A stretch of DNA of 64,000 nt, taken from positions 32,001 through 96,000 of IMG/VR virus record IMGVR_UViG_3300042453_001086; one strand, written 5' to 3'. This DNA comes from a virus. Numbering within the stretch: the stretch's first letter is position 1; each line of letters starts with the position of its first letter. Made by a program: the position numbers and the translations under genes. Positions 37,128 through 63,818 of the stretch are shown one piece after another. The notes under the pieces are model-generated. The model was not told the origin of the DNA. It ran no database searches and saw only the letters and a program-made list of their open reading frames with translations.

Positions 37128-37158
37128 AAATACCTCTAGTTTCCTAGAGGTATTTATA
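37128..37158 (-). promoter_or_regulatory. Late promoter TATAAATA overlapping a 12-bp terminator-like hairpin that contains the gp13 SD
   Basis: TATAAATA at 37158..37151; aaatacctctag-gaaa-ctagaggtattt then TTTT and ATG. Confidence 0.8.
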
Positions 37159-43907: not shown

Positions 43908-43942
43908 TATTTATAAAAAAAATCCCCCCGTGAGGAGGGATT
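43908..43942 (-). terminator. Intrinsic terminator followed by a TATAAATA late promoter
   Basis: aatccctcc-tcac-ggggggatt + T tract; TATAAATA at 43915..43908. Confidence 0.78.
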
Positions 43943-45617: not shown

Positions 45618-48600
45618 TTATGCCTGTGATTCAGACCAAGTGATCCTTGAGGACAGAGATAGAGGAGAGTTAACCGTAATACCCGAAGTATTCAAAGGAG
45701 CAACAGCAACTGTTAGTACGTCTGGTCCATCAGGGAATACACCATCACCACCTAGAATAGAGTTGCCGAGTGATAGTAGGTTATCAATAGCTTGGTTAAA
45801 CACGTTAGATAGTTTCTTACCACTTGACTCAGTAGATCCACCAGAAGCACGGAAGGTGAACACGGTTGTTCCACCAGTTACAGTATCGTCGTTGACGTGA
45901 GAAATATACTGACATAGTGAAGGTCTTCCGATGTTCTGCCAGTTATACTGACTCAATGCTCCGTTTAGAATCAAACGAATCTCAATATCATGTGTGGTAA
46001 GCATACCAACCGTTTGTAAAGCAAGTTGCATTCGGTTGATGATATCCCTAACGCCAACGTCACCAATCAAACCACTATCAACAGAAGGAGCAAGACGAAT
46101 GGAAAGCATTGGAATCAGTGAAGGGATTGGAGTATCCGTACCAACTGTATGTGTTAATGCTGCTGATGTGGTGGCAGCAATAAAACCAGATGTTCCAGGT
46201 GGATTTGTAGTTTGTGAGGCAGCTGCAGCGGTGAAGAAGAAGTCAATATCAGCACTACCACCACCAGTGTTGAGAACACGATAGATTCTTGCCTGACCAC
46301 CAGCAACGGCAGTTACTGCATTGATAGCAGTTGAGGCAATCTGCGTACCGAATGAAACTGAACCAATCGCAGCAAAACCAGAAGCGTCTGTTCTGAATCT
46401 ATGAATGATTCTGTTACCATAACCAGGAACAGATGTTAGAGTTACGTTATAACGGAAGTTAAAACGGAAGAACTGTAAAGCATTACCTTGAGTTGTAAAG
46501 TCAATAGCAGTGCCATTAAGAGTATTAGAAAGTTGGAAATCGTTCGTTGCTGAACCAACAACATAATAGTAGTTTCCATTTACCAATGGTGCAATAACAG
46601 CACCACCACCAGAGTCATATCTCAACAGAGTTCCATTAGAGAAACCATGTGCAGTAATAGTGATTCTATTTGTTGTGACGTTAACGTTTGCGGTTGGAAT
46701 GACAGAAGTAGATGAAGAAGTAGTTGGAGCAGTTGTGGTAGAACCATCAGTGTTTACATAAGTATAGTTTCCAGCAGTACCAGTTGTAGTTGTTGAACTA
46801 CCAGAGAATGAAAGTAGAGATGAAGAACCAGTGAATAGGTATGAACCGTCATCATCATACTTACCATCCATCTGAATGGTAGTACCCCAGTGTGCTAGTG
46901 AAGGAGCAAAAGCTGGTACACCAGTGTTGAGAATCTCATAACGAGCAGGTAAGTTACCAGAACGTAGGTATGCTTCGTACTCTTTGTTGTTATGCTTGAA
47001 CTCGTGCATGTACTTAACATGACCGTTCTGATCCTTGAATCCAAAACGAATCTTACCTGCACCGTACCACGAGTAGTCAATGTAGGCCATCTGAATCTTG
47101 CCAATATTTAAGACATATCCAGTTGGACCAGTACCGTCGCACTTGTCAATGCTGAACTCATGCTGTGGAACTTTAATGTCAATAGTTTTGGTGATAACTG
47201 CACGAGTTGTTGTAACTCCTTTATAAGAAGGAGAAACATACATTGTGCTGTTTGAAGCAATATTAACGATCTTATAAGATTGCCCTCTGATTGCTACATA
47301 ATCACCAGCGGATAACTGCTCAAGGAAACGAGTACCTTGACCAGAAATAACAGGACTATTGTTTGTTGCGTTAATAGTACCAGCAACTTGCTGAGTGCTA
47401 TTTCTTCTAACTGCATATAGGGTTGTGCCATCATATTCCCAGAACATACCGTTCTGCATATCAAACATACCACAACGAATAGCAGAACCATTCCAGTTTC
47501 TGATTTGTAGTTTAGGGAATCCATTTGCCGAAGTGTCAGATGGTTCTCCATCCATAACGTAAGTAAATGTTGTTTGTGAAGGAACGCTTTGAACTGGGAA
47601 AGTCCCGTTGTAATAGTTTACACCCGAGCTAACTTCTGCTTCTGCAACTGTGAATGTTTTGTTTGCAACTAGACCATGTGGAAGAAGTGTGGTTACAGTA
47701 GCAACGTTGCCACTTGCTGTGATTGACTGAATCTCAATAGATGGATTGAAGTTAATAGCGAACTGACACGCTAGACCTTTACCTGACTGGTAACGGAAGT
47801 ATCTACGAGTCTGACGAATGATTTGTGAGTCAGCACCGTATCCAGCATTAATCTCAACACCACCGTCAAATGGTCTGTGAAGACTGAATGCACCAGGACG
47901 TACATAAAGACCAGAAGGAATCAGATATGTTAGACCAGAAGTAGTTGAAGCTGCAGCATCTGCAATCGTTAGTGAGGTGTTGGACTTGATAGCAATAATC
48001 TCAGAAGCAAGTACAGAACCTGTTCCTAGATTGATGATAATCGTATCACCAACACGGAATGTTGAAAGGAAAGTAGTATTCGTTCCAGTGACAGTTGTTA
48101 AACCACTACTGATGGCAACAGTACCTGTTCCAGCAACTTCGCCTACAACACTAGATGACGTAAAGATGTGCGAAGTTCCTGTTCCAATACTGGTAATGTC
48201 TCTTGCCGATCCCCCTAAAGCATTTTCGTAACTATCTGCCAACTTGAATGTATCTTTATCAAGTCTGATAATAAAGTATGTAGCATTGTTAGTTAAGTTT
48301 CCTAAAGAAGTATTGCCATTATTACTATACTCAACAGAAGTACCAGATGCAAAACGGTGGTTTGTGATAGTGAATACATCTGTAGTAGTATTCAACTGAG
48401 TTGTTGGGTTTAGAGATCTTTGAATCTTTGGAATCTGAGCAGAAACGTCAAATGTATATTGAGTAGGTGAAGCTACGTTGGTTACAGTGTAAGCACCATC
48501 AAACGATCCAGCAGTTTGAATGTTTAATGACTGTGTTCCAGTACCAGCAGAGGTTAGATTGATTCTAGTTCCATTGCTGGAAGCAGCGACAGTGAATCTA

Positions 48601-51600
48601 TCTAATCCAATAACTTCCTTTACATAATACGTTTGAAGGTCAGTTAAACCACCGATTGTAGTATTGCCACCATCATCATAAACAAGTTCTGTGCCAGGTA
48701 CTAGACCGTGGTTTGCCTTGAAGATAGTGTCAGCAGTTGGGTTGGTAACAGTCTTAGTGAAGACATGGGCAGAACCAGTACCAAAACTCTCAAGGTCTAA
48801 ACGATTACCTACAGAAGTTGTTTTGAGACCAAACTTAGTTGGCGAACTTAAGTCAATATAGTAACCCTTAGTTACAGAACCAAATGCAGATCCAGTTCCA
48901 GGATTTGCGGTTGATGTAACAGTAAACTGAGTACTTCCGTTAGTCGTAGCAATCGTCCAGCTTCCATTGTATGCAGATGGTGTTACACCACTGATAACAA
49001 CACCTTCTCCAACAGACCACGATGAAGAGTTAGTTGTTACTGTAAAGTTGGATGCGGTTGAAGTGATGGCAGTAATAGTAACAGCAGAGTTTTGGGTTAT
49101 GCCAGCAATAGATGTTCCGCCACCATTTGAATATGTAACAATATCATTGTCAGCAAATCCATGTGCGCTTGAGAAGTTGATTAGGTTTCTTGCTGCATAT
49201 TCTTGGTAAGGAACGAATGCATGAATACCACTTGTTTGTGAGAAACTATGTGTAAATGATTGAGTGCCGTAATCAGTTAAGTTGATTCTAACTCCACTAG
49301 AAGTTAGAGATAATCCAAATCTGTTTGCATCATAACGTCTTACGAAGTACTTCGTATTTGTTGTGAGACCAGTGATAGCAGTGTTTCCATTAGAATCATA
49401 ATTTACCTCATCGTTATCATTATATCCGTGGTTTGCTTGATAGATAGTCCAAGCAGTTTCTAGTGAACGATAAGGAACGAGTAGATGAATCTGACCACCC
49501 GCAGCAAATGTATATCCAGCACTGAATGTGAATGCCGTACCACCTCTTGTTGTAGCAAGAGTCATTTGAGTGGCAGCAGGATAAGACCTTGAGAAGAATG
49601 TAGTTCCTAGATTAGTATTTACTGCCGTGATAACACCACTGGTTGTTGCGTTAGCTGCTGTGTTTAAGGTATAAGTACCAGCACCACCAGCACCAGTTCC
49701 AAAAGCAATAATAAATGCACCAGCAGGAATACCAGGACCAGAAACGGCAGAACCGATTTCTAGTGCTCCACTGATTGCAGTTGGAGATCCGCTAACAGTA
49801 ATACTAGCACTTCCATTTGTTGTGCTGACTGATCCAATAAATGTAGTTGCATGTGCGCCGCTGCTATACCATTGAGCAGTGTTTGCTTCAGCACCTTGTA
49901 ATACGTTACCAGTGGATGAGAGGTTGGCTAATGCTGGACCTTTGTAATAAACAAACTTTTGATCGGTATTTCCGCTGATTGCGAATCCTCTACCAGCGTC
50001 ACTGTTGTTAACATCAGTTGCTTGCATAGTGATGGTGGCAACACCATTCGTAACAGAGTTGATACACATACCAGCAACAAGTAGGAATCCAGGTCCACTC
50101 AAACCAGATAAAGTTAGTGCAGTAGTTCCGTTTTGAACTAATGTGAGAGCAGGAGCTGCTGGTGTAGCACTGGCAACGCCTGTAGTTCTAATAGCGTATG
50201 CTCTACCATTCGTAAGAGCAGCTGGTAGTGTAGTACCAGGAAGAGCAATAAGTGCTACACCAGTCTGGTCCGTGAATACTGTAGTGTTAGCACCAAAGTT
50301 AATAAAGTTACCTGAAATCATGTTAGGTGTCACCAGGGCAATACCGCTGTTTGATGCACCATGTAAAGTTCCCTTACGAGAAGTGGCGTTTAAAATATTG
50401 ACACCTAAAGAATCTGGTGAATACTGTAAGTTGCCAGTAATAGTTGTTGCAGTAGAAACAGTTTGCGAAGCACTAACTGTGTATGTTCCAGTTCCGCCAG
50501 TGCCAGTTCCAAAAGCAGTGATTCTAGTTCCAGCAGTTACACCAGTACCAGAAATGACACTACCAATCTCTAAACGACCATCTGTAACAGCAGAGATTGT
50601 TAGTGTTGTTGTGGCGATAGTACCAGTACCACTGAAAGCACTAGCCTCTTTTCTTAATGGACTGATTGCTAGAAGTGGACCTTCGGTTACATTATAGTTT
50701 CCAGTTGAAGTTGAGTTGATGGTCCAATCTGCAGAAGCACCACCAGTAACAAAATATGTACTGGTTAAGTTTGCCGAATCAGCAGTATACCAGTCTGCAA
50801 TAGTGCCAACAGCATCAGCAGGACCAGTAGTGCCAGCAGAAGACTGTTGAATCAAAGCAGGGCTTTGATCTCCTCTGTAGTAAACAAATCTCTGTGAACT
50901 AGCCCAACCAGGATTCTCAAAGAACTTGATTTGGTCGTTGCTATAGTTAATGCTTCTTACGCCATGCGCTCTAACAATAGCGAACTGACCGCTACCAGTG
51001 CTGGTGATATCTACAGGAGTTGTTGAACTCCAGTATCTTGTTAGATAGAAGGTATTGACATCAATAGTTCTAAGAACATATGCACGACCACCTGTTACAC
51101 CACCAGGCATTGTAGAACCAGCAGCAGGGAAAATAACTACTGCTTGGTTATCAGAGAATCCATGTGAGCTTAGCGTAATGTTATTTGTTGCTGCATCAAC
51201 AGCATCGCTTGTGAATGCTTTAGTATTAGAAATACCAGATGCACCTTGCTTGTCCCAGATAGTTACGTTGTAAGAATCTAGTGTTCCTACGGACTGAGTT
51301 CCTGTTGGATTGACGGTTGCAGTTGATGTGATTGTATCTGCAGTATCAACTAGAGTTGCATCAAATGAAATATTGCTCAGAGCAATAGTATTTGTCAAAT
51401 AGAAAGCAGCTCCATTAACAAACCCTGATGGATATGGAGTTTCAATCGTAATGGTTGATGGGTTGGCAGCATTAGTTGTGATTGTCTTATACTGAACTTG
51501 CGAACCCTGATAAAACTGTCCAGGAGTAATGGTTGTGTAAGATCCAAAAACAGAACCAGTAAATGTTGCTTTCTCTCTGGCAACAAAAGTAAAACGATCT

Positions 51601-52193
51601 GTGTCTAGTACGTTTTTGATAATGTAGCTACCCTCTAGTGTAGTTACACTAAGACCACGAACGTCAATAGGTGTACCTACTGAAAGTCCGTGTGAAGGAG
51701 CTGTTACGATAATAGTATCGTTGTCATTAGTTACAGCAACTTCAGTTACTACTAGAGGACTATCACCACTTCTACTGAAGAACGATGGAATGTTGTTTAA
51801 CATTTCCAGCGTTTCCCACTTGGTTGACTGAAGACCATATTCAAAGTCTGTGTCAATCAGAGTCTGTGCTTCGGAGATTCTGAACTTTGATACGGGGTCA
51901 GTATACGCTTCATCTGGTTCAAAAGCAACAGCATCTTCTTCGTAAAAGATTTGTAGAGTATCAGTAGCACTCATGCCACTGCAATCTTTTACAAGAGTAA
52001 TAGTTGTCTCTTCGGTATCTGTGTCGAAATCAAATGATGTTGCACCTAGAGTTGGTTCAGCAAAGTTATAGATAATAATATTTTCAGTTACATTAGTAAT
52101 AAGAAGAAGTCTTCTTCTACGAATGTTGCCCTCAATAGTTACTTGATTGGTTGAGGGAGAAAATGTGGATTTGAAAACTAATCGTTTTGCCAT
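45618..52193 (-). CDS. Very large repeat-containing virion structural protein
   Basis: 2191 aa; recurring H-G-F..G..V.Y..GG...I.GLT....Y......D.F.L modules; TASG/G-rich. Confidence 0.78.
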
Positions 52194-52222: not shown

Positions 52223-52411
52223 TTAACCACCTAGGGCGATTGATAGGGCAAGTGAGGTACTCTGTTTTGCTACTTCAAACCCACCTTGAGTTGCTCCATC
52301 GTGCATGATTACTGTATTCTTATCAGTGTCAAATGTGATTTCCGCTTCGGCTCCAGTAAAAGCAGCGTGCTCAGCGGTAGTTCCTCTTCTGAGTTTGACT
52401 CTGGTAGTCAT
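52223..52411 (-). CDS. 62-aa protein consisting of an Mtd-like N-terminal domain plus a hydrophobic tail
   Basis: VKLRRGTTAEHAAFTGAEAEITFDTDKNTVIMHDGATQGG...SLALSIALGG; TATAAATA late promoter at 52449..52442. Confidence 0.75.
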   Translation of the reverse strand: MTTRVKLRRGTTAEHAAFTGAEAEITFDTDKNTVIMHDGATQGGFEVAKQSTSLALSIALGG

Positions 52412-52452
52412 AGAGATACCTATCCTAGTGCTTTCTTTTCTTATTTATAAGA

Positions 52453-55400
52453 TTAGATAATGGAGACATATGTTCTTCCTGGACGATATGGATTGTTAAC
52501 AGTATTTGCATTACCAGTAACGACAAATATATTTGTGTCTTCTTCTGGATTTCTACTTATAGATTCTGCAGCACCACTAAATGCAAGAACAGATCCAGAT
52601 CCAATAACAATATTGGATTTAATTGTAACTGCTGCACCAGAAATAGTTGTGAAGATATCACTTTCAGCAACATTTGTAGTTGTTTCTGCCGCTTCGCCAA
52701 ATCCAAACAGGGAACCAGAAGCAGAAAACACAATGGTGTGTGATTCTGATGAGAATACATCTACCGTTGCTGTTCCTTTTCCTCGGTAAGATCCAGGAAT
52801 AAACTCCTCAACGGAGAAACCAGTGATTACTGCAGTAACATCTCCATTGAATACTCTAGATCTTGTGTCATCAGAGTAACCACTAACTGTAATGAATACA
52901 GTAGTATCAATCACTACAGTCGCGGTAACAGCACCACTTCCAACATTGTAAAGTGAACCAGAACCCTCGTAGGATTCTGTATTCTTCTCGGTTGCAGCAC
53001 CAGTGAATGTGTAAAGAACTGTATCTTCTGGTGGGTTGACACCGAACGCCTCGGCAGCACCACTTATAGCAAATAGCGAGCCAGATGCTACATAAGATTC
53101 TGTATTGCTCTGGTCTGCAGTGCCAGTGATGGTTGCTGTTCCAGTTCCGTTGTATGCCTCGGTGTTTCTCTCAACAGAGAATACATCAACAGAGATGTCA
53201 CATAGACCGACATAAGACTCGGTGTTCTTCTCGGTAGCTGCTCCACTGTATGTGAAGAGTTGAATGTTTTCTGGTGGATTTGCACCGAATGCTTCCGCTG
53301 CACCACTGAAGTTGGAGATAGAACCAGAACCGTTATATACATTTGTTTTAGTCGATTCAGAATCAACGTTAATATGAATATATCCTTCTGGATAATATTT
53401 TTCGGTATTTTTCTCTGTAGCAACACCAGAAAGATTAAAGAGTTGAATGTTCTCTGGTGGATTTGTGCCAAATGCCTCTGCTGCACCAGATGCTGTAGAT
53501 ATAGATCCAGTGCCAACATAAGATTTAAATATTGGTGCATATGCATCGCCAAATACTGTTAAAGATCCACTAGAATCATATGCTTCTGTATTTCTCTCAA
53601 CTGCTTCTCCACTGATAGTAAAGAGTTGTGTTGTTTCTCCGCCTTGAGATGTGAAGGATTCTGTGGCAGATCCAACGAACGTGAAGAGAACTGTATCCTC
53701 TGTTGGTTGAACAGTGAAGGACTCTGCAGCACCGTTGTAGTTGAAGAGTTGACCAGTACCAACATAGGACTCGGTATTCTTCTCAACTGCACTGCCAGTA
53801 ACAAACTCTGTGCCAGTGCCGACTTCTTTGTATGTATTGAGAACAACAGAAGATCCAACAAACGTAAATAGTGCAATATCTTCTGGTGGATTTGCACCAA
53901 ATGCTTCTGCTGCTCCAGTGTATGTAAATAGTTGACCAGAACCAACATAAACAGGCGAGAAGCTTTCAAGTCCAACACCAGAAGCAGTGAGAGTTCCTGT
54001 GCCATTGTATGCTTCAGTGTTCTTCTCAACTGCCGTGCCACTGAGAGTTGCAGTGCCAGTAGCAAAGTGTGCTTCAGTATTTCTCTCAACTGCTGCACCG
54101 CTGATAATGAAGAGATGAGTATTCTCTGGTGGTTGAGCAACGAATGCTTCAGCAGCAGAGCTAGAGAATGTGAAGAGAACTGTATTCTCTGGGGTCTGAG
54201 CAGAGAATGCCTCTGCTGCACCAGATAGAGCAGTGATTAATCCAGTTCCAATATAGGACTCTGTGTTCTTCTCTACTGCTGTGCCGCTGAGTGTCTCTGT
54301 ACCAGTGCCGACATATGCCTCTGTATTTCTTTCTGTAGCAGCACCAGAGTAAACAAATAGATGAGTATTCTCTGGTGGATTGACACCGAATGCTTCGGCA
54401 GCACCAGATAGAGTTGAAACAGAACCAGTACCGATGTAAACTTCGGTGTTCTTCTCCACGCCAACACCAGAAGCAGTGGTAGTTCCAGTACCAACATATG
54501 CTTCGGTATTTCTTTCCTTGGCAGTACCAGATAGTGTCTCTGTTCCAGTACCAACCCAAGATTCTGTATTCTTCTCTGTTGCTGTGCCAGCGAATGTGTA
54601 TAGTAGAGTATCTTCGTCTGGGTTGATTGTTCTGCTTTCTGCAGCACCATTGAATGTGAAGAGTTCGCCAGATCCAGTGAATGTCTCTGTGTTCTTCTCA
54701 ATGGCAACACCAGAAGCAGTGGTAGAACCAGTACCAACATATGCTTCTGTATTTCTCTCAACATGAGATACGGAGATTGTGTATGTTCCTTGACCGTCTG
54801 TTTCAAATCTGTAGAGATAGATAACTCTAGTTTCTGCGACACCAGAAGAGACGAAGAGGTGTGTATTTTCTGGTGGATTGACAGTGAAAGATTCTGCCGC
54901 ACCAGAAACAGTGGATAAGGAACCAGATCCAACAAACGCTTCCGTATTCTTCTCTACACAGACACCGCTTGCAGTTGTGGATCCTGTGCCAACGTAGGAC
55001 TCGGTGTTCTTCTCTACCGCAGCTCCAGTGTAGGTGAATAGTGTAATATCTTCTGGTGGGTTGGCACCAAATGCTTCAGCAGCACCAGAGATTGTAGAAA
55101 CAACACCAGTACCGATGTAAACTTCGGTGGTATTGTAAATACCAGCACCACTTAAAGTCTCTGTGCCAGAACCAACGAATGCTTCGGTGTTCTTTTCAAC
55201 TGCTGTTCCAGTAATAGATTCAGTTCCAACACCAACATAAGACTCAGTGTTCTTCTCTGTAGCAGCTCCAGTGTAAGTGAATAGTTGAGTGTTCTCTGGT
55301 GGATTAGCACCAAATGCTTCCACTGCGCCAGACAGAACAGAGAAGGTGCCAGTTCCAACGTAGGACTCGGTGTTCTTCTCTGCGCCAACACCGCTGAGTG

Positions 55401-58400
55401 TCTCTGTTCCTGTGCCAGCAAATGCTTCAGTGTTCTTCTCTGTGGAGAATACATCAATCGTAAAGATTGGATTATCACCAACATAATCTTCGGTATTTCT
55501 CTCAACCGCTGCTCCACTGAGAGTGGTTGTGCCAGATGCAGATGCTGTGTAGACTGCAATCTCTCTAGTATTGCCAACGCCAGATACAGAGAAGAGTTGA
55601 GTGTTTTCTGGGGGATTAGCGCCGAATACTTCAGCAGATCCAGATGCGGTGAATAGGTTACCAGAACCGTTGAAGCTTTCTGTGTTTCTTTCGGTTGAGA
55701 ATACATCAATAGAAGTGCTGCCAGTACCAATGTATCTTTCTGTGTTGCTTTCAACTGCAGAACCACCGAAAGTAAACTGACCTGTCGCACCAATAATAGT
55801 TTCTTCGTAACGAATATATCCATAATCAAATATGCCGCTAGTTGGTGGTAGAGCGACAGATCCATAATCAATGTCAATAGATGGAATCTCAGTAACAAAC
55901 TCATAATCAACTTCATTAAATCCGATAACAACATCAATATTGTAAACATAAGTTACAGACTCAGCAGCACCACTAAATCCGAATAGAGATCCAGTACCGA
56001 CATAAGATTCTGTGTTTGTAACTACAGCAGAACCAGATGTGGTTGTTGTGCCAGTTCCATTGAAGGCGTTGACTTCCTTATAAGAAGCAGCACCAGATGT
56101 GAAGAATGTAATATAATCAGTATATGGGAAGTAACCAATGAAGAAGATTGATCCACTGATGCTAACGAGAACACCAGATCCAACGAAGGACTTGACGAGA
56201 TCTTCGTCACCTTCACCTGTGAGAGTTTGAGATCCAGTACCGACCCAGGACTCAGTGTGCTTGATGTCAGAAGCAGCACCAGTGTATGTGAATAGCTGTG
56301 TATTCTCTGGTGGGTTGACTCCAAAGACTTCTGCAGCACCAGATGTTGCAAATAGAGAACCAGAAGCAATCTCTCTGGGAGTTGAGCGAACAATAGAAGT
56401 TGGAATAATCTCAATGTAGTTTCTTACTGTAGTGCCGTTATCAATAAACTCACTGGCAATAGAAGAAATCAGACCATAATCTTCTGTGGATGTTGTAGCA
56501 TCCTTAATAAGATTTCTATACTCATTGACAACTTCGACAGTTTCAACTGTGTAATCGTAAGTTCTTCTCTCTTCAGAATCAATAAATGTGAATGCGTTAC
56601 CAGAACCAACATAAGATTCGGTATTCTTTTCAGTAGATTCGACATCAATATTGATTGTTCCATTACCGATCCAGTTTGGAACGAAACGCATTGTGTGTGT
56701 AACGTCAATCTCAGTTGTTCCTGCGCCAATATAAGACTCTGTGTTCTTCTCGGTAGCAACACCTGAGTAGACAAAGAGTTGTGTGGATTCTGGTGGATTT
56801 GCACCAAATACTTCAGCAGCACCAAATGCAGTGAATAGAGATCCAGTGCCAATCTCAGATACAGAAGTTACATCAACAGCAACACCAGTTACGGAAATAT
56901 TTTGTGTATTCTCTGGTGGATTGAATCCAGCAGACTCGATAGCAACACCAGAGAATGTAAACTGAGCAAAGTCTTCTGGTGGGTTTGCTCTGAACTTCTC
57001 TGTTGCTGTTCCGCTTGTTTGGAATAGCTGAATATTTTCTGGTGGGTTCGCACCAAATACTTCAGCAGCACCAGATGATGTAAATAGATTACCAGATCCG
57101 ATTTCAGCAACGGATACAGGTACTGTACCAGTGCCACTGATAGTGATTGTGCCATCCTTGCTGACCCAACGTGGAATCTCGCGTACCTTGCCAAAACCAC
57201 TGATAGTAATAGTACCAGAAGCAGTATATAATCCTTCTCCAAAAGATTCTGAGGCAGTTCCTCTTAGGAATAAGAAATCAAAGTCTACTGCACCATATGA
57301 TTCAGTTTGTGTGAATGCTATGTCAACAGTGCCATAATCTTCGGAAGAAGTAATGGCATCAGTAATCAATCCATAATCATCTACACTTAGTAGATTGGAT
57401 TGAGATACAGTGTAGTCATACGTTCTACTTTCAATCTTATCAACAATCTCAAATAGAGTTCCAGTACCAACATAAGATTCAGTATTCCTTTCAACTGCAG
57501 ATCCACTGAGAGTAAAGAGCTGAGTATCTTCGCCACCTTGAGTAGTAAACTTCTCTACCGCAACACCAGAGAATATAAACTGTGCAAAATCTTCTGGTGG
57601 GTTCGCTCTGAACTTCTCAACTGCATTGCCACTAGTAGCGAAGAGTTGGATATTTTCTGGTGGGTTGGCACCAGTAGATTCTGCTGCACCAGAAGCATTG
57701 AAGAGATTGCCAACACCAATATAATCTTCGGTGTTCTTCTCAACTGCACTACCAGTAATAGATTCAGTTCCAACACCAACGTAAGATTCCGTATTCTTCT
57801 CAACAGCTGCGCCCGAGATAACAAAGATCTGAGTATTCTCTGGGGTATTTGGAGAGAATGCTTCAATCGCAGCACCACTTAGGTTGATTGAACCGAATGG
57901 TAGTACAGATTCGGTGAAGATTACTGTGCCATAATCTACTTCGCCACCAGAGAATGCACCAGCAACAGTACCATAATCAATCTCTATAAATGCGGCAGCA
58001 CTGATAGAACCATAATCAACATCTAGGAACGGTACTACGTCGTTTAGATCATAGACATAGGTTCTGCTTTCATCCGAATCAATGAACTCAAATAGAGTAC
58101 CTGTGCCAACATAGGATTCGGTGTGCTTCTCAACCGATGTAATATCAATATTGATAGTACCCGAACCATTCCATTTTGGATTGACCTTGACTATAGCAGC
58201 ACCAGATACTTGGAATAGTTGTGTATTCTCTGGTGGGTTTGCACCAAACGCTTCTGCAGAACCATTGGTTGTGAAAGCGAAACCAAATCCAACATATGCT
58301 GGTATGAGTTTTCTGAGTTCTGAGAATACATCTAATGTTGCCTGACCAGTACCAACATAAGACTCAGTATTCTTCTCTACGCCACTGCCAGTATATGTAA

Positions 58401-61400
58401 AGGTTACTGTCTGTTCTGGTGTTTGAGCAACAAACTTCTCAACCGCAGTACCATTAGTATCAAATAGTTGTGTATCTTCTGGTGTCTGAGCGGATAGTTT
58501 TTCTATCGCATAACCATAGAGTTTGAGGTAATCTCTTACTACGCTACCAGCAGTCTCAAACTCAGTAGCAGCAGACGTGATCAATCCGAAGTCTTCTGTA
58601 GATCCAGCAGACTCTCTGAGATCACCATAATCAGAGAGAACATGAATAGATGCTTGAGCAACTGTGTAAGACTCAGTGTTCTTCTCAACCTTAGTAACAT
58701 CAATAGAAGTGCTACCAGTACCAACGTAGTCTTCTGTATTCTTCTCTACACCAGCACCAGAGAATGTGAAGAGTTGAGTTGTCTCACCGCCTTGTGTAGT
58801 GAACTTAATAATATGACTACCAGAAAGAGTAAACTGAGCAAAGTCTTCTGGTGGATTTGCTCTGAACTTCTCTGTTGCTGTTCCGCTAATGTCATATAGC
58901 GAGAAGTCTTCGGACGGATTAGCACCAAATGCTTCAGCTGCACCAGAAGTGTTGAAGAGGTTACCAGTACCTACATAAGATTCTGTATTCTTCTCTACAG
59001 CAGATCCAGTGAGATTTACAGAACCAACACCAATGATGCTTACCGCAAGAGGTAGAACAACAGCACCACTTAATGTGATTGTTCCGCCATTATCAACGAT
59101 GTTCTTGCTGAATAGTTCAACAGCAAAACCAGAAGTCGTCCACAATCCATAAGGGACTACTTCATTATTAAATGTGATTATACCATAATCTTGTTCGCCA
59201 CCTGTATTAGGAGCACTTACGCTACCAAGATCAATATCATTTGTTGGAGATTGAGTGACACTACCATAATCAAACTCAAAGAATGGAACAAACGAATCAA
59301 AGCTGTAGCGATAAGTTACAGACTCTGCAGCACCAGAGAACGAAGAGAATGTGCCATCACCAATATAAACCTCAGTGTTCTTCTCAACCGCTGCTCCAGT
59401 GAACTGGAATATTTGAGTGTCTTCTGGCGTCTGAGCAACAAAGGATTCGGTGGCAGCACCAGAGAATGTGAAGAGCGAGAAGTCTTCTGGTGTCTGAGCA
59501 ATAAACTTCTCAACTGCAGATCCAGCAATATCATAGTAATCGCTAGTGAGATAACGATAATCTATATTAGTTGCAGACTGCGTGATGAGACCATAATCTT
59601 CAGACTCTGTTACTGCCGTCAGATCGCCGTAGGAAGCGAATAGATCGGTGACATCAGATAGTTCCGCTACATACGTTTCAGTGTTCTTCTCAACGCTTAT
59701 AACGTTGATTGAGGCGCTTCCAGTACCTACATAGTCCTCGGTGTTCTTCTCCACCGCAGCGCCGCTTAGAGCGAAGAGTTGCGTGGTTTCTCCAGCACCA
59801 CTGGTGAACTTCAGGTCAGTATATTCGCCAGCAAAAACAATACTTCTTGGTTGATTAGAAGTTAATCTGATCTCGGTAATGCCGTAGTTATCAAAACCAG
59901 TTCCACTTGAAGATGCTTGTAGTATTTTGAAAATAGTGGAAGATGTTTTAGCAGCACTTGGTATAGTTAATGATACATTTTTTAGTGTGTTAAAAGACGT
60001 ATCATTGTATGATACTATAGGACCAATAATAGTAAATGTAGTTCCGCCATTTATACTGTATTCTAATATTAAATTTTCTGATGATGTATCTGGATCTTCA
60101 CCGCCGTTATTATCGTTTCCTCTTATTGCACTGAATGAAATGCTGTCGTAAGTTGTAGTATCAAGGGGTGTTAATAGAAAACTTCTTGAACCTAATCCAT
60201 TGAATTTAATATGCCTACCAATATTAAATCCGCCATCATCACCAACTCCAGTGCCTGAGTTAGATATTGCTACATTAATAAAACTATTTGTATTAAGTTT
60301 ATTTGAATATGTGGATAAAGTTGTGGTAACAATACTATTACCTACATATGTGTCAGTATTCTTTTCTACTGCAGAACCAATATAAGAGAATATTTCAACA
60401 CTGCTTGGTATAACTGAACTAGTTGATTGCGATGCTCCAAATGCAGTGAAGAGACCACCAGTTCCTATATAAGATTCTGTATTTTTTTCAATATGAGTGA
60501 CATTAGTAGAAATAGATCCACTGCCAATAATAACAGCATTAACTGGAACAATACTAAAACCAGATATCGCAATCTGAGTTCCAGTAGTTATTGTTTTCTT
60601 ATTAAATGACTCTAATCCAGTACCATTTGTTTCGTAGAGACCAAATGGAGTTACTTCGGAATTATTTGTGATTAGACCATAATCTTTCTCTCCATCATTA
60701 TTCTGTTGAACTACAAATCCAAAATCAATATCTGGATTTATTGGAGAAGAAAGAGATCCATAATCTAATATATTAAATGGTAATGCGTTTTCAAAATCAT
60801 AACTTCTAACATGCACCTCCGAGGAGGTGATATCCAATCGCAGGGGACCAGAAGTTCCAACAGTAGAAAATGCTTTTTCTATTTCATTAGCAGATCCACC
60901 AATCTCAAATGGCGTTCCGCTGCCAACCCAATAAGACAATGATGTTGACGAAGAAGCGCCATAAAAATAAAATAATGTTGTTTCTGCATCTTCTTTTGTA
61001 ACAAACTTAACCAGTGCTTCATTTGAAGCGTAGGTATAAGCAGTTTCCATTGCAAGAACACTTTGGTTCTGTATGATTAGGTAACGATCTTCTCTGGTGG
61101 TTATGCCATCACCAGCTGTTAAAGTGCCATAATCTTCTGAACTATCTGGTGTTGTCGCTGTAAATGTAGTTACAACACCTAGATCTTCATTTGTTGCTGT
61201 GTCTCCTAACAGACCCCAATCCTGAGTTTCTGCAGATTGGGTGTCAATAGTTCCATATCTTTCTATTAATACAATATCACCATAATCTTCCGAAGTGTAG
61301 AGATTATCGGAAGTCGATGAGTATCTATATCTTTTTGGTTTCCAGTATGTTGCTGAACCATTTACAGTGGCAAAACCATAGGGAGTATCGTTTCCCTGAC

Positions 61401-61551
61401 GCACTGTAACGGTATCGTATGATTCCTGTGAAGTTGATGCTACGTTTACTGCACCAAAATCCTCAGTAGACGTAGCGGGTGTATATGTAAACCCGTTATC
61501 TACTGAGGAAAAAGGATAACTGTCAGTACTATCGTAAACGTATGACGCCAT
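52453..61551 (-). CDS. Giant acidic repeat protein (putative fibre/structural)
   Basis: 3032-aa uninterrupted ORF in the late structural cluster, composed largely of 19-20-aa repeats. Confidence 0.8.
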   Translation of the reverse strand: MASYVYDSTDSYPFSSVDNGFTYTPATSTEDFGAVNVASTSQESYDTVTVRQGNDTPYGFATVNGSATYWKPKRYRYSSTSDNLYTSEDYGDIVLIERYGTIDTQSAETQDWGLLGDTATNEDLGVVTTFTATTPDSSEDYGTLTAGDGITTREDRYLIIQNQSVLAMETAYTYASNEALVKFVTKEDAETTLFYFYGASSSTSLSYWVGSGTPFEIGGSANEIEKAFSTVGTSGPLRLDITSSEVHVRSYDFENALPFNILDYGSLSSPINPDIDFGFVVQQNNDGEKDYGLITNNSEVTPFGLYETNGTGLESFNKKTITTGTQIAISGFSIVPVNAVIIGSGSISTNVTHIEKNTESYIGTGGLFTAFGASQSTSSVIPSSVEIFSYIGSAVEKNTDTYVGNSIVTTTLSTYSNKLNTNSFINVAISNSGTGVGDDGGFNIGRHIKFNGLGSRSFLLTPLDTTTYDSISFSAIRGNDNNGGEDPDTSSENLILEYSINGGTTFTIIGPIVSYNDTSFNTLKNVSLTIPSAAKTSSTIFKILQASSSGTGFDNYGITEIRLTSNQPRSIVFAGEYTDLKFTSGAGETTQLFALSGAAVEKNTEDYVGTGSASINVISVEKNTETYVAELSDVTDLFASYGDLTAVTESEDYGLITQSATNIDYRYLTSDYYDIAGSAVEKFIAQTPEDFSLFTFSGAATESFVAQTPEDTQIFQFTGAAVEKNTEVYIGDGTFSSFSGAAESVTYRYSFDSFVPFFEFDYGSVTQSPTNDIDLGSVSAPNTGGEQDYGIITFNNEVVPYGLWTTSGFAVELFSKNIVDNGGTITLSGAVVLPLAVSIIGVGSVNLTGSAVEKNTESYVGTGNLFNTSGAAEAFGANPSEDFSLYDISGTATEKFRANPPEDFAQFTLSGSHIIKFTTQGGETTQLFTFSGAGVEKNTEDYVGTGSTSIDVTKVEKNTESYTVAQASIHVLSDYGDLRESAGSTEDFGLITSAATEFETAGSVVRDYLKLYGYAIEKLSAQTPEDTQLFDTNGTAVEKFVAQTPEQTVTFTYTGSGVEKNTESYVGTGQATLDVFSELRKLIPAYVGFGFAFTTNGSAEAFGANPPENTQLFQVSGAAIVKVNPKWNGSGTINIDITSVEKHTESYVGTGTLFEFIDSDESRTYVYDLNDVVPFLDVDYGSISAAAFIEIDYGTVAGAFSGGEVDYGTVIFTESVLPFGSINLSGAAIEAFSPNTPENTQIFVISGAAVEKNTESYVGVGTESITGSAVEKNTEDYIGVGNLFNASGAAESTGANPPENIQLFATSGNAVEKFRANPPEDFAQFIFSGVAVEKFTTQGGEDTQLFTLSGSAVERNTESYVGTGTLFEIVDKIESRTYDYTVSQSNLLSVDDYGLITDAITSSEDYGTVDIAFTQTESYGAVDFDFLFLRGTASESFGEGLYTASGTITISGFGKVREIPRWVSKDGTITISGTGTVPVSVAEIGSGNLFTSSGAAEVFGANPPENIQLFQTSGTATEKFRANPPEDFAQFTFSGVAIESAGFNPPENTQNISVTGVAVDVTSVSEIGTGSLFTAFGAAEVFGANPPESTQLFVYSGVATEKNTESYIGAGTTEIDVTHTMRFVPNWIGNGTINIDVESTEKNTESYVGSGNAFTFIDSEERRTYDYTVETVEVVNEYRNLIKDATTSTEDYGLISSIASEFIDNGTTVRNYIEIIPTSIVRSTPREIASGSLFATSGAAEVFGVNPPENTQLFTYTGAASDIKHTESWVGTGSQTLTGEGDEDLVKSFVGSGVLVSISGSIFFIGYFPYTDYITFFTSGAASYKEVNAFNGTGTTTTSGSAVVTNTESYVGTGSLFGFSGAAESVTYVYNIDVVIGFNEVDYEFVTEIPSIDIDYGSVALPPTSGIFDYGYIRYEETIIGATGQFTFGGSAVESNTERYIGTGSTSIDVFSTERNTESFNGSGNLFTASGSAEVFGANPPENTQLFSVSGVGNTREIAVYTASASGTTTLSGAAVERNTEDYVGDNPIFTIDVFSTEKNTEAFAGTGTETLSGVGAEKNTESYVGTGTFSVLSGAVEAFGANPPENTQLFTYTGAATEKNTESYVGVGTESITGTAVEKNTEAFVGSGTETLSGAGIYNTTEVYIGTGVVSTISGAAEAFGANPPEDITLFTYTGAAVEKNTESYVGTGSTTASGVCVEKNTEAFVGSGSLSTVSGAAESFTVNPPENTHLFVSSGVAETRVIYLYRFETDGQGTYTISVSHVERNTEAYVGTGSTTASGVAIEKNTETFTGSGELFTFNGAAESRTINPDEDTLLYTFAGTATEKNTESWVGTGTETLSGTAKERNTEAYVGTGTTTASGVGVEKNTEVYIGTGSVSTLSGAAEAFGVNPPENTHLFVYSGAATERNTEAYVGTGTETLSGTAVEKNTESYIGTGLITALSGAAEAFSAQTPENTVLFTFSSSAAEAFVAQPPENTHLFIISGAAVERNTEAHFATGTATLSGTAVEKNTEAYNGTGTLTASGVGLESFSPVYVGSGQLFTYTGAAEAFGANPPEDIALFTFVGSSVVLNTYKEVGTGTEFVTGSAVEKNTESYVGTGQLFNYNGAAESFTVQPTEDTVLFTFVGSATESFTSQGGETTQLFTISGEAVERNTEAYDSSGSLTVFGDAYAPIFKSYVGTGSISTASGAAEAFGTNPPENIQLFNLSGVATEKNTEKYYPEGYIHINVDSESTKTNVYNGSGSISNFSGAAEAFGANPPENIQLFTYSGAATEKNTESYVGLCDISVDVFSVERNTEAYNGTGTATITGTADQSNTESYVASGSLFAISGAAEAFGVNPPEDTVLYTFTGAATEKNTESYEGSGSLYNVGSGAVTATVVIDTTVFITVSGYSDDTRSRVFNGDVTAVITGFSVEEFIPGSYRGKGTATVDVFSSESHTIVFSASGSLFGFGEAAETTTNVAESDIFTTISGAAVTIKSNIVIGSGSVLAFSGAAESISRNPEEDTNIFVVTGNANTVNNPYRPGRTYVSII
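52900..60500 (-). repeat. Imperfect coding tandem repeats (about 57-60 nt units) in the giant gene
   Basis: By-eye count: about 40 E(K/R)NTE(S/A)YVGTG units and about 30 (N/T)PPE(N/D)TQLF units; the DNA core gtattcttctc/gtgttcttctc recurs. Confidence 0.9.
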
Positions 61552-61574: not shown

Positions 61575-61605
61575 AAAAAAGGGGATTGCCAAGGCAGCAA
61601 TCCCC
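61575..61605 (-). terminator. Intrinsic terminator after the 359-aa gene
   Basis: ggggattgc-tgccttg-gcaatcccc followed by TTTTTT. Confidence 0.82.
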
Positions 61606-61640: not shown

Positions 61641-62720
61641 TCAGTCAAGGCTGATGTTGAGGGTGATCTTAATCTGGTCACCGTTGTTCTGAATCTCGTA
61701 AGGACCGTTTGTGAATCTCTCAGCGTACATAATGGCGCTGTAGAGAGTTACGTCACTGTTACCAGTGAAAGCAGTACCACCCGAGGTTAGAAGTGAAGGT
61801 GTAGTTGTGAACTCAGTTGCCGAAGGTGTCTTATAAACGGTGTATGTGTTAGCAGCAACAGTACCACCAGCAGTTGAAGTACCACCAGCAACGTAGATTA
61901 CGTCGCCAGGTTGTAGTTGGTGAGCAGTGTCAGTTACAACTTTACCGAATGAGAACTCAACGGTAGGATCGGTAGCGTTCTGAATGTTAGCAGTTAGGTT
62001 AGCACTGAGGTATACTCTGTGACCGTTATAAGGAGAATCGGTTGCAGTGGTTCTCTCAATACCGATAACCTTGGTGTTTGCAGGGATAGCAGCGTTACCA
62101 CCAGCAATCATGCCGATTGTTAGATCGTCTACACCACCAAATGAAGCACTGTTAGCAGTAGTAGGAACGGTGATGAAGTTGGTGTTGATAAGACCAATAC
62201 AATCCTTAGTACCAGCAGCACCTGCTTCACCTTTGGTGATTGTAGTACCAGCAGAAGCAGTAGCACCATCAAGTACACCCTGAAGTGCTAGTGGCATGTT
62301 GTTGGCGCGGGTGATGTAGTAACCGTAAACGTTACCTGCAGCAGCAGTGAACGTAAAGGTTTGCTCTGGGTAGGTAGCAGTTGTAGTTCCACCAGACTGA
62401 GTAATCGCCCAACGCGAACCGTTTAGAAGAATACCGTACTGTGAATCATAGTCGTAACGGGCTTCTGTACGGTTGTTGACGCAAGTTGGATAACCAGTTT
62501 CAATAGATGAACCGTAACCGAAGCTGCCATCATTCTGATAAGGCTCGTAATAAGCAGACTGAGAAGGTACGTCGTTCTCAGCGGGAGTTGTATCTGATGA
62601 GAATAGTTTTAGAACAAGATCTCTAGGTGCGGTATCTTCTCTGTCAGCAACGTGATTGCTTTGGTTGATGAGATAACGTAGTGAGTCTAATTCACCAATA
62701 TTTGGAACTAGAAGTGCCAT
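61641..62720 (-). CDS. Putative virion structural protein
   Basis: 359 aa; LVLKLFSSDTTP...YPEQTFTFT...VYGYY...AERFTNGPYEIQNNGDQIKITLNISLD; TATAAATA at 62761..62754; GGAGG SD. Confidence 0.7.
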   Translation of the reverse strand: MALLVPNIGELDSLRYLINQSNHVADREDTAPRDLVLKLFSSDTTPAENDVPSQSAYYEPYQNDGSFGYGSSIETGYPTCVNNRTEARYDYDSQYGILLNGSRWAITQSGGTTTATYPEQTFTFTAAAGNVYGYYITRANNMPLALQGVLDGATASAGTTITKGEAGAAGTKDCIGLINTNFITVPTTANSASFGGVDDLTIGMIAGGNAAIPANTKVIGIERTTATDSPYNGHRVYLSANLTANIQNATDPTVEFSFGKVVTDTAHQLQPGDVIYVAGGTSTAGGTVAANTYTVYKTPSATEFTTTPSLLTSGGTAFTGNSDVTLYSAIMYAERFTNGPYEIQNNGDQIKITLNISLD

Positions 62721-62790
62721 TTAAATTTCCTCCAGGGATTTCTCTTTTTCTTTTATTTATAAGAATAGCAAAGTTGCATACATGTATTTA

Positions 62791-63483
62791 TCACAAATGA
62801 ACCTTCAATGCTATTAAAAATCTTTTTATATTTGATACCGCAATGACCTCATATTGAAGAACATCGCTAGCGTTTAATACTCTATTCCAACTAGTCAAAT
62901 CTTCATCTTTATTTTTTCTTTGCTGAGATCCATTTATAACACCTAGATATGGTTTTTCTGTTCCTGTGATAGAAACCATATCTGGGTAATTTTGATATGA
63001 AGATTTTTTGATGTCTAATAATAAAGTTCCAGGTTGATCCGCAACTATTGTCCACGAATCAATAGTGCCAGTGACATCTAAAGTTATTTCTCCTTTTATT
63101 CCTGGTTCCATATCAAATGAACCACTTTCAACAACATAGTTTATTGTTCTTGTTAAATCTGCTGTTGTTGCCATAGCAACACAGAAAAAATCAGAACCTT
63201 GTGCTGGCGGAGAAGTGAAAACAATAGTATTCCCAGATATTAAATAATCAACTTTTGGTTCTAAAATAATATTATTTAAAGATACCAATATTTGTTGCTC
63301 ATTTATAGGATAATATGGTTCATCATCTAAAGTTAGAGAAAATGATGTCGTTGAGTTGTTGAAGAGCAAACTAAAATCATCAAGTATCTCATTTAGATAC
63401 TGCAATGATTTTGAAGGAATCTGATAACTTATCCCTACTTTATATTGCTTTCTTCCACCTACAGTAACTCTATAATCAGTCAT
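62791..63483 (-). CDS. Hypothetical structural protein (baseplate/fibre-associated module)
   Basis: ILVSLNNIILEPKVDY.ISGNTIVFTSPP module followed by GTIDSWTIVAD..G.L.LDI.KSSY.NYP module. Confidence 0.65.
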   Translation of the reverse strand: MTDYRVTVGGRKQYKVGISYQIPSKSLQYLNEILDDFSLLFNNSTTSFSLTLDDEPYYPINEQQILVSLNNIILEPKVDYLISGNTIVFTSPPAQGSDFFCVAMATTADLTRTINYVVESGSFDMEPGIKGEITLDVTGTIDSWTIVADQPGTLLLDIKKSSYQNYPDMVSITGTEKPYLGVINGSQQRKNKDEDLTSWNRVLNASDVLQYEVIAVSNIKRFLIALKVHL

Positions 63484-63818
63484 TAGGTTACTCCTGGAGA
63501 AACTTCTACTATGCCTTCTACAACTCTAGTTTTAACTCCAGAGGGAGAAGTGATTACAACATCGTAAACATATCTCTTTGCAGTAAGAACTGATGACTGT
63601 TGAGGTGTAAGAGATAGTCTAATAACACCAGCTAGTCTATCCACAAACTCTACATTCATTGAATGAGATGTTGCGGAAGCAAATGAACGCTTCATTTTTG
63701 CCTCGGCAGTAAATCCTGTCAGATTTAGAGGCAATCCATTATCTTCATCAGCAATAGTTAATGTAGTATCAAAATTTGCGTTTTTTTCTACTGGTAGATT
63801 AATAGAATATGCAGACAT
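63483..63818 (-). CDS. Small virion structural protein (Ig-like adaptor, tentative)
   Basis: PLNLTGFTAEAKMKRS...G.I.LSLT...RYVYDVVIT...RVVEGIVEVSPGVT. Confidence 0.68.
   Translation of the reverse strand: MSAYSINLPVEKNANFDTTLTIADEDNGLPLNLTGFTAEAKMKRSFASATSHSMNVEFVDRLAGVIRLSLTPQQSSVLTAKRYVYDVVITSPSGVKTRVVEGIVEVSPGVT

What the first reader, a model, noticed from the sequence alone, without database searches (positions are those of the whole stretch)
52453..61551. 3032-aa protein written in a small alphabet of interchangeable 19-20-aa units
Seen: unit A (EKNTESYVGTG-SLF/TET-xSGAA, about 40 copies) and unit B (EAFGANPPENTQLFTYSGAA, about 30 copies) share an E...SG-x-A frame but occur in irregular order (AB, AAB, ABB). 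They are punctuated by several acidic triple-DYG blocks (DYGS...DYG...DYG). Inference: a long beta-solenoid or fibre whose length and pattern can be rewritten by recombination among near-identical DNA units. I do not recognise the repeat family.
Basis: partly seen in the sequence, partly recalled or inferred. Interest (0 to 1): 0.7.

Follow-up and report, generated by a model that had tools for sequence, protein, structure and literature searches.

The report
Giant repeat fibre protein of cyanophage
A lake-water relative of phage T4 that infects cyanobacteria encodes a real 3032-residue virion fibre protein made of about 85 short 20/21-residue units, which most likely acts as a very long "rope" onto which many copies of the neighbouring 359-residue protein dock, a fibre design so far solved only in much shorter forms.

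Summary
ORF 52453-61551 (-) encodes 3032 aa with about 85 contiguous units: 51 A-type of 20 aa and 34 B-type of 21 aa. They form (A)2-3(B)1-2 groups of 61/81 aa. Conserved acidic DYG "knots" and a reelin-like jelly-roll domain interrupt them.

The repeat is not unrecognised. It passes Pfam DUF4075 and PHROG 11522, both of unknown function, and has 490 cluster representatives. All those with context lie in one conserved tail-fibre cassette of T4-like cyanophages.

A syntenic homologue, S-SCSM2R ORF111 (mis-named TolB), was detected in purified virions.

The DNA units are not near-identical: 55-64% identity and no tandem array by TRF. Even so, orthologues differ by whole-unit indels of 20-83 and 172 aa, and a 3.76-kb block is 100% identical to a strain that is otherwise about 87% identical.

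AlphaFold monomer models do not fold, and no solenoid appears.

The upstream 359-aa gene co-occurs strictly with this family. It carries a late promoter, a strong SD and a terminator, whereas the giant gene has no promoter of its own. This fits a beads-on-a-rope fibre (about 0.5). A self-folding trimeric fibre is the main rival.

The scan made the same reading earlier on an orthologue in another genome (e1-5735239).

The parts
52453..61551 (-). Giant repeat protein gene (3032 aa, P0001)
   Evidence: PHROG 11522 at E 3.6e-224; Pfam DUF4075 at 38 bits against a cut-off of 25
60502..61551 (-). N-terminal 350 aa. It starts directly with a DYG-type knot motif and holds a further knot at aa 245-310 (60622-60819).
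   Evidence: no Pfam hit
59869..60219 (-). Inserted reelin-subrepeat-B-like jelly-roll domain (aa 445-561), the probable ligand- or sugar-binding 'cargo'
   Evidence: Pfam PF21471 at E 1.2e-14, 54.6 bits against a cut-off of 27; PDB reelin chains at E 1e-7. Other family members carry FG-GAP, SBBP or CBM17/28 domains in the same slot.
59137..59325 (-). Type-1 triple-DYG knot (aa 743-805). Paralogous knots lie at 57886-58074 (aa 1160-1222) and 55777-55962 (aa 1864-1925).
52930..55755 (-). Dense A/B unit array (aa 1933-2874) organised as (A)2-3(B)1-2 groups of 61/81 aa
   Evidence: DNA spacings of 183 and 243 nt
52456..52491 (-). Conserved extreme C-terminal tail (..P.RTYVSII-COOH), shared across the family
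   Evidence: also present in S-SCSM2R ORF111, S-SSM7_110 and S-CAM1 SXBG_00232
54617..58380 (.). 3764-nt block that is 100% identical to the orthologue in IMGVR_UViG_3300043427_001127, whose genome is otherwise about 87% identical. This is a recombination tract.
   Evidence: the same block is held in contigs of other studies
61581..61605 (-). Intrinsic terminator (11-bp stem, then a T run) between the 359-aa gene and the giant gene
   Evidence: an equivalent hairpin is found in 13 of 14 diverse loci
61641..62720 (-). U1, a 359-aa partner candidate (PHROG 10467, unknown function) and the proposed 'bead'
62729..62761 (-). T4-type late promoter TATAAATA (62754-62761) and GGAGG Shine-Dalgarno (62729-62733) in front of U1
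   Evidence: conserved in 14 of 14 loci
62791..63818 (-). U2 (230 aa, virion structural, PHROG 10330) and U3 (111 aa, weak BppU_N/LtfC-like), the upstream members of the cassette
52223..52449 (-). Late promoter TATAAATA (52442-52449) immediately after the giant gene's stop codon, followed by a 62-aa Mtd_N-domain ORF (52223-52411). This starts the next transcription unit.

Best explanation
The gene encodes the backbone of a very long virion fibre of a freshwater T4-like cyanophage. About 85 units of 20/21 aa form an extended chain that does not fold on its own. Most likely each unit, or small group of units, is a docking site for copies of the co-encoded, much more highly expressed 359-aa protein U1. 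This would be a 'beads-on-a-rope' (chain-like) fibre. Conserved acidic DYG knots and a swappable lectin-like domain (reelin-like here) are spliced into the rope. A conserved C-terminal tail (..PxRTYVxII) probably anchors or caps it.

Shown: the repeat anatomy; the family and its fixed place in the tail-fibre cassette; detection of a homologue in virions; the strict U1 partnership; the promoter/terminator layout; whole-unit indels; and a recombination tract.

Inferred: that U1 physically docks on the units; the stoichiometry; and the role in host adhesion.
For: (1) Context. The order U3>U2>U1>giant>Mtd_N gene>tail protein>1771-aa tail fibre is conserved in about 45 loci, next to the neck genes.
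(2) Virion presence. S-SCSM2R ORF111 is the syntenic homologue (phmmer 1e-39, same B units, same C-terminal tail). It was detected by mass spectrometry in CsCl-purified virions (PMC12801897).
(3) Partner. In 50,697 phage records, U1 is found in exactly the 16 records that hold the repeat, plus one contig-end fragment. U1 is far better conserved (46-59% identity) than the giant protein (25-32%).
(4) Expression layout. U1 has TATAAATA plus GGAGG, then a strong terminator, and there is no late promoter before the giant gene. This is conserved in 14/14, 13/14 and 14/14 diverse loci, with different stem sequences. It implies many U1 per giant protein.
(5) Folding. AlphaFold2 with a 108-sequence alignment gives an extended chain with no secondary structure (pTM 0.14). 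The array gives pLDDT 38.5.
(6) Language-model features place U1 next to clusters carrying Pfam Gp80, the GP4 bead (score 0.95, 197 of 256 features, 14 of 30 hits).
(7) In the solved A1002 rope, the 226-residue fibre-dock stretch holds 11 bead dimers, about 20.5 residues per dimer (PMC13730344). This matches the 20/21-aa unit.
(8) Indels among orthologues come in whole units: 20, 41, 61, 63, 81, 81, 81, 83 and 172 aa.
Against: No sequence or profile link exists between U1 and known beads. Pfam gives no hit, PF23140 finds nothing in the whole genome, hhalign of the U1 alignment against GP4 gp80 gives probability 0.3%, and the U1 profile hits no fibre chain in the PDB. U2 shows no link to the GP4 adaptor Gp77. 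U1 is about 2.5 times larger than the known beads. About 85 sites would be eight times more than any solved rope. In some lineages other fibre genes lie between U1 and the giant gene. Failure of a monomer prediction is equally expected for an intertwined homotrimer.
Confidence: 0.5

Rival explanations
1. The protein is a self-sufficient homotrimeric beta-fibre, such as a triple beta-helix or beta-spiral like the T4 long tail fibres or the adenovirus shaft. Each 20/21-aa unit would be one structural repeat of three intertwined chains. U1 would then be an unrelated abundant virion protein, a tip adhesin or an assembly factor.
For: The gene lies in the tail-fibre cluster of a T4-like phage, where trimeric fibres are the rule (established knowledge). 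Each unit carries Gly-rich turns (GxG, SGAA) and alternating hydrophobic residues. AlphaFold monomer models fail, as expected for obligate trimers. A chaperone-like gene, U3 (LtfC/BppU_N-like, weak), lies nearby.
Against: No similarity to any tail-fibre Pfam or PHROG family or to a PDB fibre. This reading does not explain the strict co-occurrence with U1, or the conserved layout of promoter, strong SD and terminator that over-produces U1 relative to the giant protein.
Confidence: 0.3
2. The protein is a monomeric beta-solenoid (single-chain beta-helix with one 20/21-aa unit per coil).
For: The coil-length periodicity fits. The array profile gives a weak hit to PDB 3jx8, a 'putative lipoprotein' with GSG-containing repeats, at E 0.011 for the whole sequence.
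Against: The individual stretches of that hit have E-values of 4-8. AlphaFold2 did not build a solenoid with either a 20- or a 108-sequence alignment, although in my experience it usually predicts solenoids readily.
Confidence: 0.08
3. The protein is not a fibre. It would be an internal or ejected virion protein, or a head or neck decoration, whose repeats serve another role such as a ruler or spacer.
For: The authors of the S-SCSM2R paper themselves judged ORF111 'unlikely to be structural'. Direct localisation is lacking.
Against: Its fixed position between fibre-assembly-like genes and tail-fibre genes. Inserted lectin- and propeller-type domains typical of surface adhesins. The gene lies outside the head module.
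Confidence: 0.07

Closest known systems
Chain-like ('beads-on-a-rope') fibres: Fiber I of Ralstonia podophage GP4 (gp80 dimers on a separate rope protein, PDB 8JOU), Pseudomonas podophage A1002 (11 dimers on the nozzle-rope gp39) and Bas63 collar/whisker (PMC13730344, PMC12609058)
   Same: A long, extended, non-globular polypeptide with tandem short units. An adjacent gene for a small, more highly expressed partner. About 20 residues of rope per bead dimer in A1002, against 20/21-aa units here. Language-model features link U1 to Gp80-bearing clusters.
   Different: About 85 units, against 2-11 docking sites. The host is a myovirus of the T4 type. The candidate bead is 335-475 aa, against 140-171 aa, and has no HMM or profile match to Gp80. 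Two unit types, DYG knots and lectin-like domains are spliced in. No complex has been shown.
Pfam DUF4075 (PF13294) and PHROG 11522
   Same: The protein passes both: 38 bits against a cut-off of 25, and E 3.6e-224. The matched segment is the B-to-A unit junction.
   Different: Both families are of unknown function, and no paper mentions DUF4075. The DUF4075 model covers only a fragment of the grammar, and no single stretch passes on its own.
S-SCSM2R ORF111 'TolB', S-SSM7_110 and S-CAM1 SXBG_00232 (isolated Synechococcus phages)
   Same: Same cassette position, same B units and the same C-terminal tail. ORF111 was found in virions.
   Different: They are shorter (1369-2130 aa) and only 25-32% identical. 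ORF111 carries an FG-GAP propeller where this protein has a reelin-like domain. Those phages are marine isolates, whereas this one comes from lake water.
T4 long tail fibres (gp34-gp37) and other trimeric phage fibres
   Same: Giant repetitive proteins in the tail-fibre module of a T4-like phage, likely involved in host recognition.
   Different: No detectable sequence, profile or PDB similarity. Trimer formation was not tested.

Membership tests
Pfam DUF4075 (PF13294) | Whole-sequence score at or above the gathering cut-off (25 bits) | tested here: met
   38 bits, E 1.9e-9, summed over many weak unit matches; no single stretch passes alone
PHROG 11522 | HMM match | tested here: met
   E 3.6e-224, 748 bits, 15 stretches
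Reelin subrepeat B domain (PF21471), for aa 445-561 only | HMM score above the cut-off (27 bits), plus similarity to solved reelin repeats | tested here: met
   54.6 bits; PDB 3a7q and 2e26 at E 1e-7 over aa 440-580
Chain-like fibre (GP4 Fiber I type) | Rope: an extended polypeptide with tandem docking repeats that does not fold alone | tested here: inconclusive
   85 units of 20/21 aa. The AlphaFold model is extended with pTM 0.14. This is consistent with a rope but not specific to one.
Chain-like fibre (GP4 Fiber I type) | Bead protein of the Gp80 family (PF23140) encoded with the rope | tested here: not met
   No Pfam hit for U1; PF23140 finds nothing in the genome; hhalign probability 0.3%. 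Only a language-model lead exists (0.95). The fold of U1 was not tested.
Chain-like fibre (GP4 Fiber I type) | Ig-like fibre-tail adaptor (Gp77, PF23148) | tested here: not met
   U2 has no Pfam hit, and BLASTP against GP4 gp77 gives E 3.4
Chain-like fibre (GP4 Fiber I type) | Bead dimers physically wrapped round the rope, in excess over it | not testable with these tools
   Only indirect evidence: a late promoter, SD and terminator on U1, and none on the giant gene
Trimeric phage tail fibre (T4 gp34/gp37-like) | Sequence or profile similarity to known fibre families | tested here: not met
   No tail-fibre Pfam or PHROG hit for P0001; no PDB fibre hit
Trimeric phage tail fibre (T4 gp34/gp37-like) | Homotrimeric intertwined fold | not testable with these tools
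   No multimer prediction was available; the monomer models failed
Single-chain beta-solenoid | Confident stacked-coil model, or significant similarity to a solved beta-helix | tested here: not met
   pLDDT 38.5 and 51.8 with no solenoid. The 3jx8 hit has E 0.011 overall and 4-8 per stretch.

The most novel reading that the evidence does not exclude
T4-like cyanophages of lakes and oceans carry a beads-on-a-rope fibre roughly an order of magnitude longer than any solved example. It would be a 1150-3800-residue rope whose A/B units each dock copies of a new, larger bead protein (the U1 family). Lectin-like domains would be spliced into the rope. Fibre length and binding domains would be re-tuned by whole-unit indels and by recombination between strains.
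Probability: 0.45. Interest if true: 0.75.

Novelty: new variant of a known kind. Interest (0 to 1): 0.55.

Why it matters
T4-like cyanophages are among the most abundant viruses of aquatic primary producers, yet their host-recognition apparatus is largely unannotated. This family has 490 clusters at 50% identity and is listed everywhere as 'hypothetical' or mis-named TolB. It is a large, conserved and variable part of that apparatus.

If the rope-and-bead reading holds, chain-like fibres would no longer be a curiosity of a few podophages and one Felixounavirus. They would become a major, scalable fibre design in myoviruses. That would give a concrete model for how fibre length and binding domains evolve, through unit-quantised indels and mosaic recombination. 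It would also explain why structure predictors fail on such proteins. Isolates that carry the cassette already exist (S-SCSM2R, S-CAM1, S-CAM3, S-SSM7, Sf-FS3), so the hypothesis can be tested directly.

Tried and rejected
- Tandem Repeats Finder on the DNA found no array apart from a 20-nt trifle.
- Megablast of the gene against phage records found nothing.
- The search for related loci with the N-terminal 350 aa found nothing.
- AlphaFold2 on the array (aa 2037-2446, 20 sequences) gave pLDDT 38.5. On a knot plus flanking units (aa 722-872, 108 sequences) it gave pLDDT 51.8. Both models are too poor for a fold search, so none was run.
- The protein atlas search on the array gave no lead; the best score was 0.86.
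- PDB sequence and profile searches for the repeats gave only sub-significant hits: 3jx8, 4opw, 3ljy.
I used IMG/VR loci instead.
- Unit-number variation within a population: contigs of four runs show 'joints', but these have short sides (20-53 nt) at 90% likeness and fall inside repeats, so they are not trustworthy. Contigs cannot show rare variants, so this test is void rather than negative.
- Tests for GP4 parts by sequence were all negative: Gp80 against U1 by HMM, genome scan and hhalign, and Gp77 against U2.
- The bead-chain neck fibre of Anabaena phage A-1(L) is a polymer of trimers and a different design. I do not use it as an analogue.
- The 'TolB' reading of the S-SCSM2R homologue is rejected. 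That name comes from an FG-GAP propeller insert, not from the repeat scaffold.


Full report
**What is there.** The window belongs to a 189,882-bp IMG/VR virus record. The ORF at 52453-61551 on the minus strand encodes 3032 aa.

Regex counts give 39 A-type and 32 B-type cores. Their spacings show that A units are 20 aa, B units are 21 aa, and they abut one another. Unit HMMs built from the clean copies tile 85 units, 51 A and 34 B.

The order is quasi-regular rather than free. In aa 1933-2874 the units form groups of 2-3 A followed by 1-2 B, each group 61 or 81 aa long. A units differ by position within the group, and the DNA repeat spacings of 183 and 243 nt agree with this.

Four 'type-1' acidic knots with two or three DYG motifs lie at about aa 245-310, 743-805, 1160-1222 and 1864-1925. 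Several 'type-2' knots (..SEDYGLIT..) also punctuate the array. The knot is itself a conserved module, with 137 distinct copies in related loci.

Residues 445-561 are a reelin-subrepeat-B-like jelly roll (Pfam E 1.2e-14; PDB reelin E 1e-7).

**What organism.** All neighbours are T4-type structural genes on the same strand. They include neck proteins, a 1771-aa tail fibre, 'tail protein' genes and virion structural proteins.

tblastn hits are exclusively Synechococcus phages and other cyanophages. The runs that hold the DNA are mostly lake-water and freshwater metagenomes from several studies. This is therefore a freshwater T4-like cyanophage whose nearest cultured relatives are marine.

**Is the family known?** The protein passes Pfam DUF4075 (38 bits against a cut-off of 25) and PHROG 11522 (E 3.6e-224), both of unknown function. 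No paper in the library mentions DUF4075.

A word-indexed search found 279 relatives of 1667-5306 aa. A full HMMER scan of 1.84 billion representatives with the knot-plus-unit profile found 490 at E<=1e-3 and 168 at E<=1e-30.

Among 50,697 phage records the repeat occurs in 16: S-CAM1 x7, S-CAM3 x4, S-SSM7, S-SSM6a, S-SCSM2R and Sf-FS3.

Nearly every member ends in a conserved tail..[FY]xPx[RF][TI][FY][VGA]xII.

Members carry different globular inserts in the N-terminal third. These are reelin-like here, an FG-GAP propeller in S-SCSM2R ORF111, an SBBP propeller, and CBM17/28 (the last a weak match). The scaffold therefore displays swappable binding-type domains.

**Context and virion presence.** In about 45 loci the order is fixed: U3 > U2 > U1 > giant > Mtd_N gene > tail protein > ... 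> tail fibre.

S-SCSM2R ORF111 is annotated 'TolB'. It occupies the same slot, matches P0001 (phmmer 1e-39) and shares the B units and the C-terminal tail. It was detected by mass spectrometry in CsCl-purified virions (PMC12801897).

**DNA-level repeats and evolution.** The units are not near-identical DNA.
- TRF finds nothing.
- Mean nucleotide identity between units is 55% for A and 64% for B.
- Codon sharing at identical residues is barely above the codon-usage expectation.
- The longest exact direct repeat is 32 nt.

Even so, orthologues of 46-84% identity differ by indels of 20, 41, 61, 63, 81 (several), 83 and 172 aa. These are whole units or whole groups.

Against the 84%-identical orthologue (IMGVR_UViG_3300043427_001127), the genomes are about 87% identical, but window 54617-58380 (3764 nt) is 100% identical. 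It is flanked by segments with dS 0.3 and then above 1.

Contigs from other studies hold the same block, bridged to their own diverged flanks. The mosaic is therefore real recombination between strains, not an assembly artefact. dN/dS is 0.13-0.39 throughout.

So the 'rewriting' is real on evolutionary time. It proceeds by unit-quantised indels and inter-strain exchange, not by homogenised DNA repeats. Within-population variation in unit number could not be assessed from contigs.

**Fold.** Two AlphaFold2 monomer runs failed.
- The array (20 sequences) gave pLDDT 38.5, with low-confidence hairpins.
- A knot with flanking units (108 sequences) gave pLDDT 51.8 and pTM 0.14, with no secondary structure at all.

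PDB sequence and profile searches give nothing significant for the repeats. A single-chain solenoid is therefore unsupported. The chain appears to need partners: either copies of itself or another protein.

**The partner.** I tested what I could.

Evidence in favour:
- U1 (61641-62720) occurs in exactly the same 16 phage records as the repeat, plus one contig-end fragment. It is much better conserved than the giant protein.
- U1 carries TATAAATA (62754-62761) and GGAGG, and is followed by an 11-bp-stem terminator (61581-61605). The giant gene has no late promoter of its own.
- The same layout holds in 14/14, 13/14 and 14/14 diverse loci, with different stem sequences.
- Language-model features place U1 beside clusters that carry Pfam Gp80, the GP4 bead (0.95, 197 of 256 features).
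- In the solved A1002 fibre, a 226-residue rope stretch holds 11 bead dimers, about 20.5 residues each (PMC13730344).
- Bas63 and GP4 show the same principle with 2 and 5 dimers (PMC12609058).

Evidence against:
- Pfam, a PF23140 scan of the genome, hhalign against GP4 gp80 and a PDB profile search all fail to link U1 to known beads.
- U2 is not detectably a Gp77 adaptor.
- In some lineages other fibre genes separate U1 from the giant gene.

I rate it about 0.85 that this is an external virion fibre component. I rate it about 0.5 that it is specifically a rope that docks many U1 copies, about 0.3 that it is a self-folding trimeric fibre, and below 0.1 each for a monomeric solenoid or a non-fibre role.

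It is best classed as a new (giant, myoviral) variant of the recently solved chain-like fibres, pending a multimer model or virion stoichiometry. The scan reached the same reading before on an orthologue in another genome, and on several unrelated 'giant rope' candidates. Those notes are leads, not independent evidence.

Noticed in passing
window 52223-52411 (-), with TATAAATA at 52442-52449: A 62-aa ORF consisting of a Major-tropism-determinant N-terminal domain (Mtd_N, E 5.8e-16) sits directly after the giant gene behind its own late promoter. The 540-aa 'tail protein' gene at 43963-45585 starts with the same domain (E 2.4e-12). In most relatives the Mtd_N hit directly precedes that tail-protein gene.
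   Followed up: partly
window 45618-52193 (-): The 2191-aa protein P0002 (PHROG 5838 virion structural, with many H-G-x-x-x-G-D/T-x-V motifs) lies between the Mtd_N ORF and the tail-protein gene only in this phage and its closest relatives (L009-L013; also L015 and L032). Most family loci lack it there. U1 carries one copy of a similar motif (AHQLQPGDVIYV).
   Followed up: partly
window 54617-58380: A 3764-nt tract is 100% identical to a strain that is otherwise about 87% identical. In two other studies' runs, the contigs of this tract have 5-7 times the depth of the flanking strain-specific contigs. This suggests that several co-existing genotypes share the tract.
   Followed up: partly
whole window / runs X1-X9: The DNA is held mainly by lake-water and freshwater metagenomes (16 studies), whereas every cultured relative is a marine Synechococcus phage. 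This points to a freshwater lineage of Kyanoviridae-like phages.
   Followed up: no
L057:12081-16190 (S-SCSM2R ORF111): The GenBank product name 'TolB' comes from an FG-GAP beta-propeller insert (Pfam E 4.9e-43). The protein is a member of this repeat family. Its neighbours are annotated 'tail fiber rope protein' (the U1 homologue) and 'tail adaptor protein' (the U2 homologue), words that echo the GP4 fibre parts.
   Followed up: partly
window 8403-8410, 37151-37158, 43908-43915, 52442-52449, 62754-62761: All five TATAAATA motifs in the window are on the minus (coding) strand; the four checked (37151, 43908, 52442, 62754) lie just upstream of gene starts. This is consistent with T4-type late promoters, although the raw count is not above chance (5 against 3.5 expected).
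   Followed up: partly
L016:3429-4841 and similar loci (L026, L031, L033, L053): In some lineages, extra fibre-like genes are inserted between U1 and the giant gene. An example is a 471-aa protein with GYATQGYVN-type repeats.
   Followed up: no
window 56986-57013 and 58858-58885: Independent (Logan) contigs of the source run break at these two points inside the gene, with 28-nt overlaps. These are probably assembly-graph branch points caused by co-occurring strains or internal repeats.
   Followed up: no
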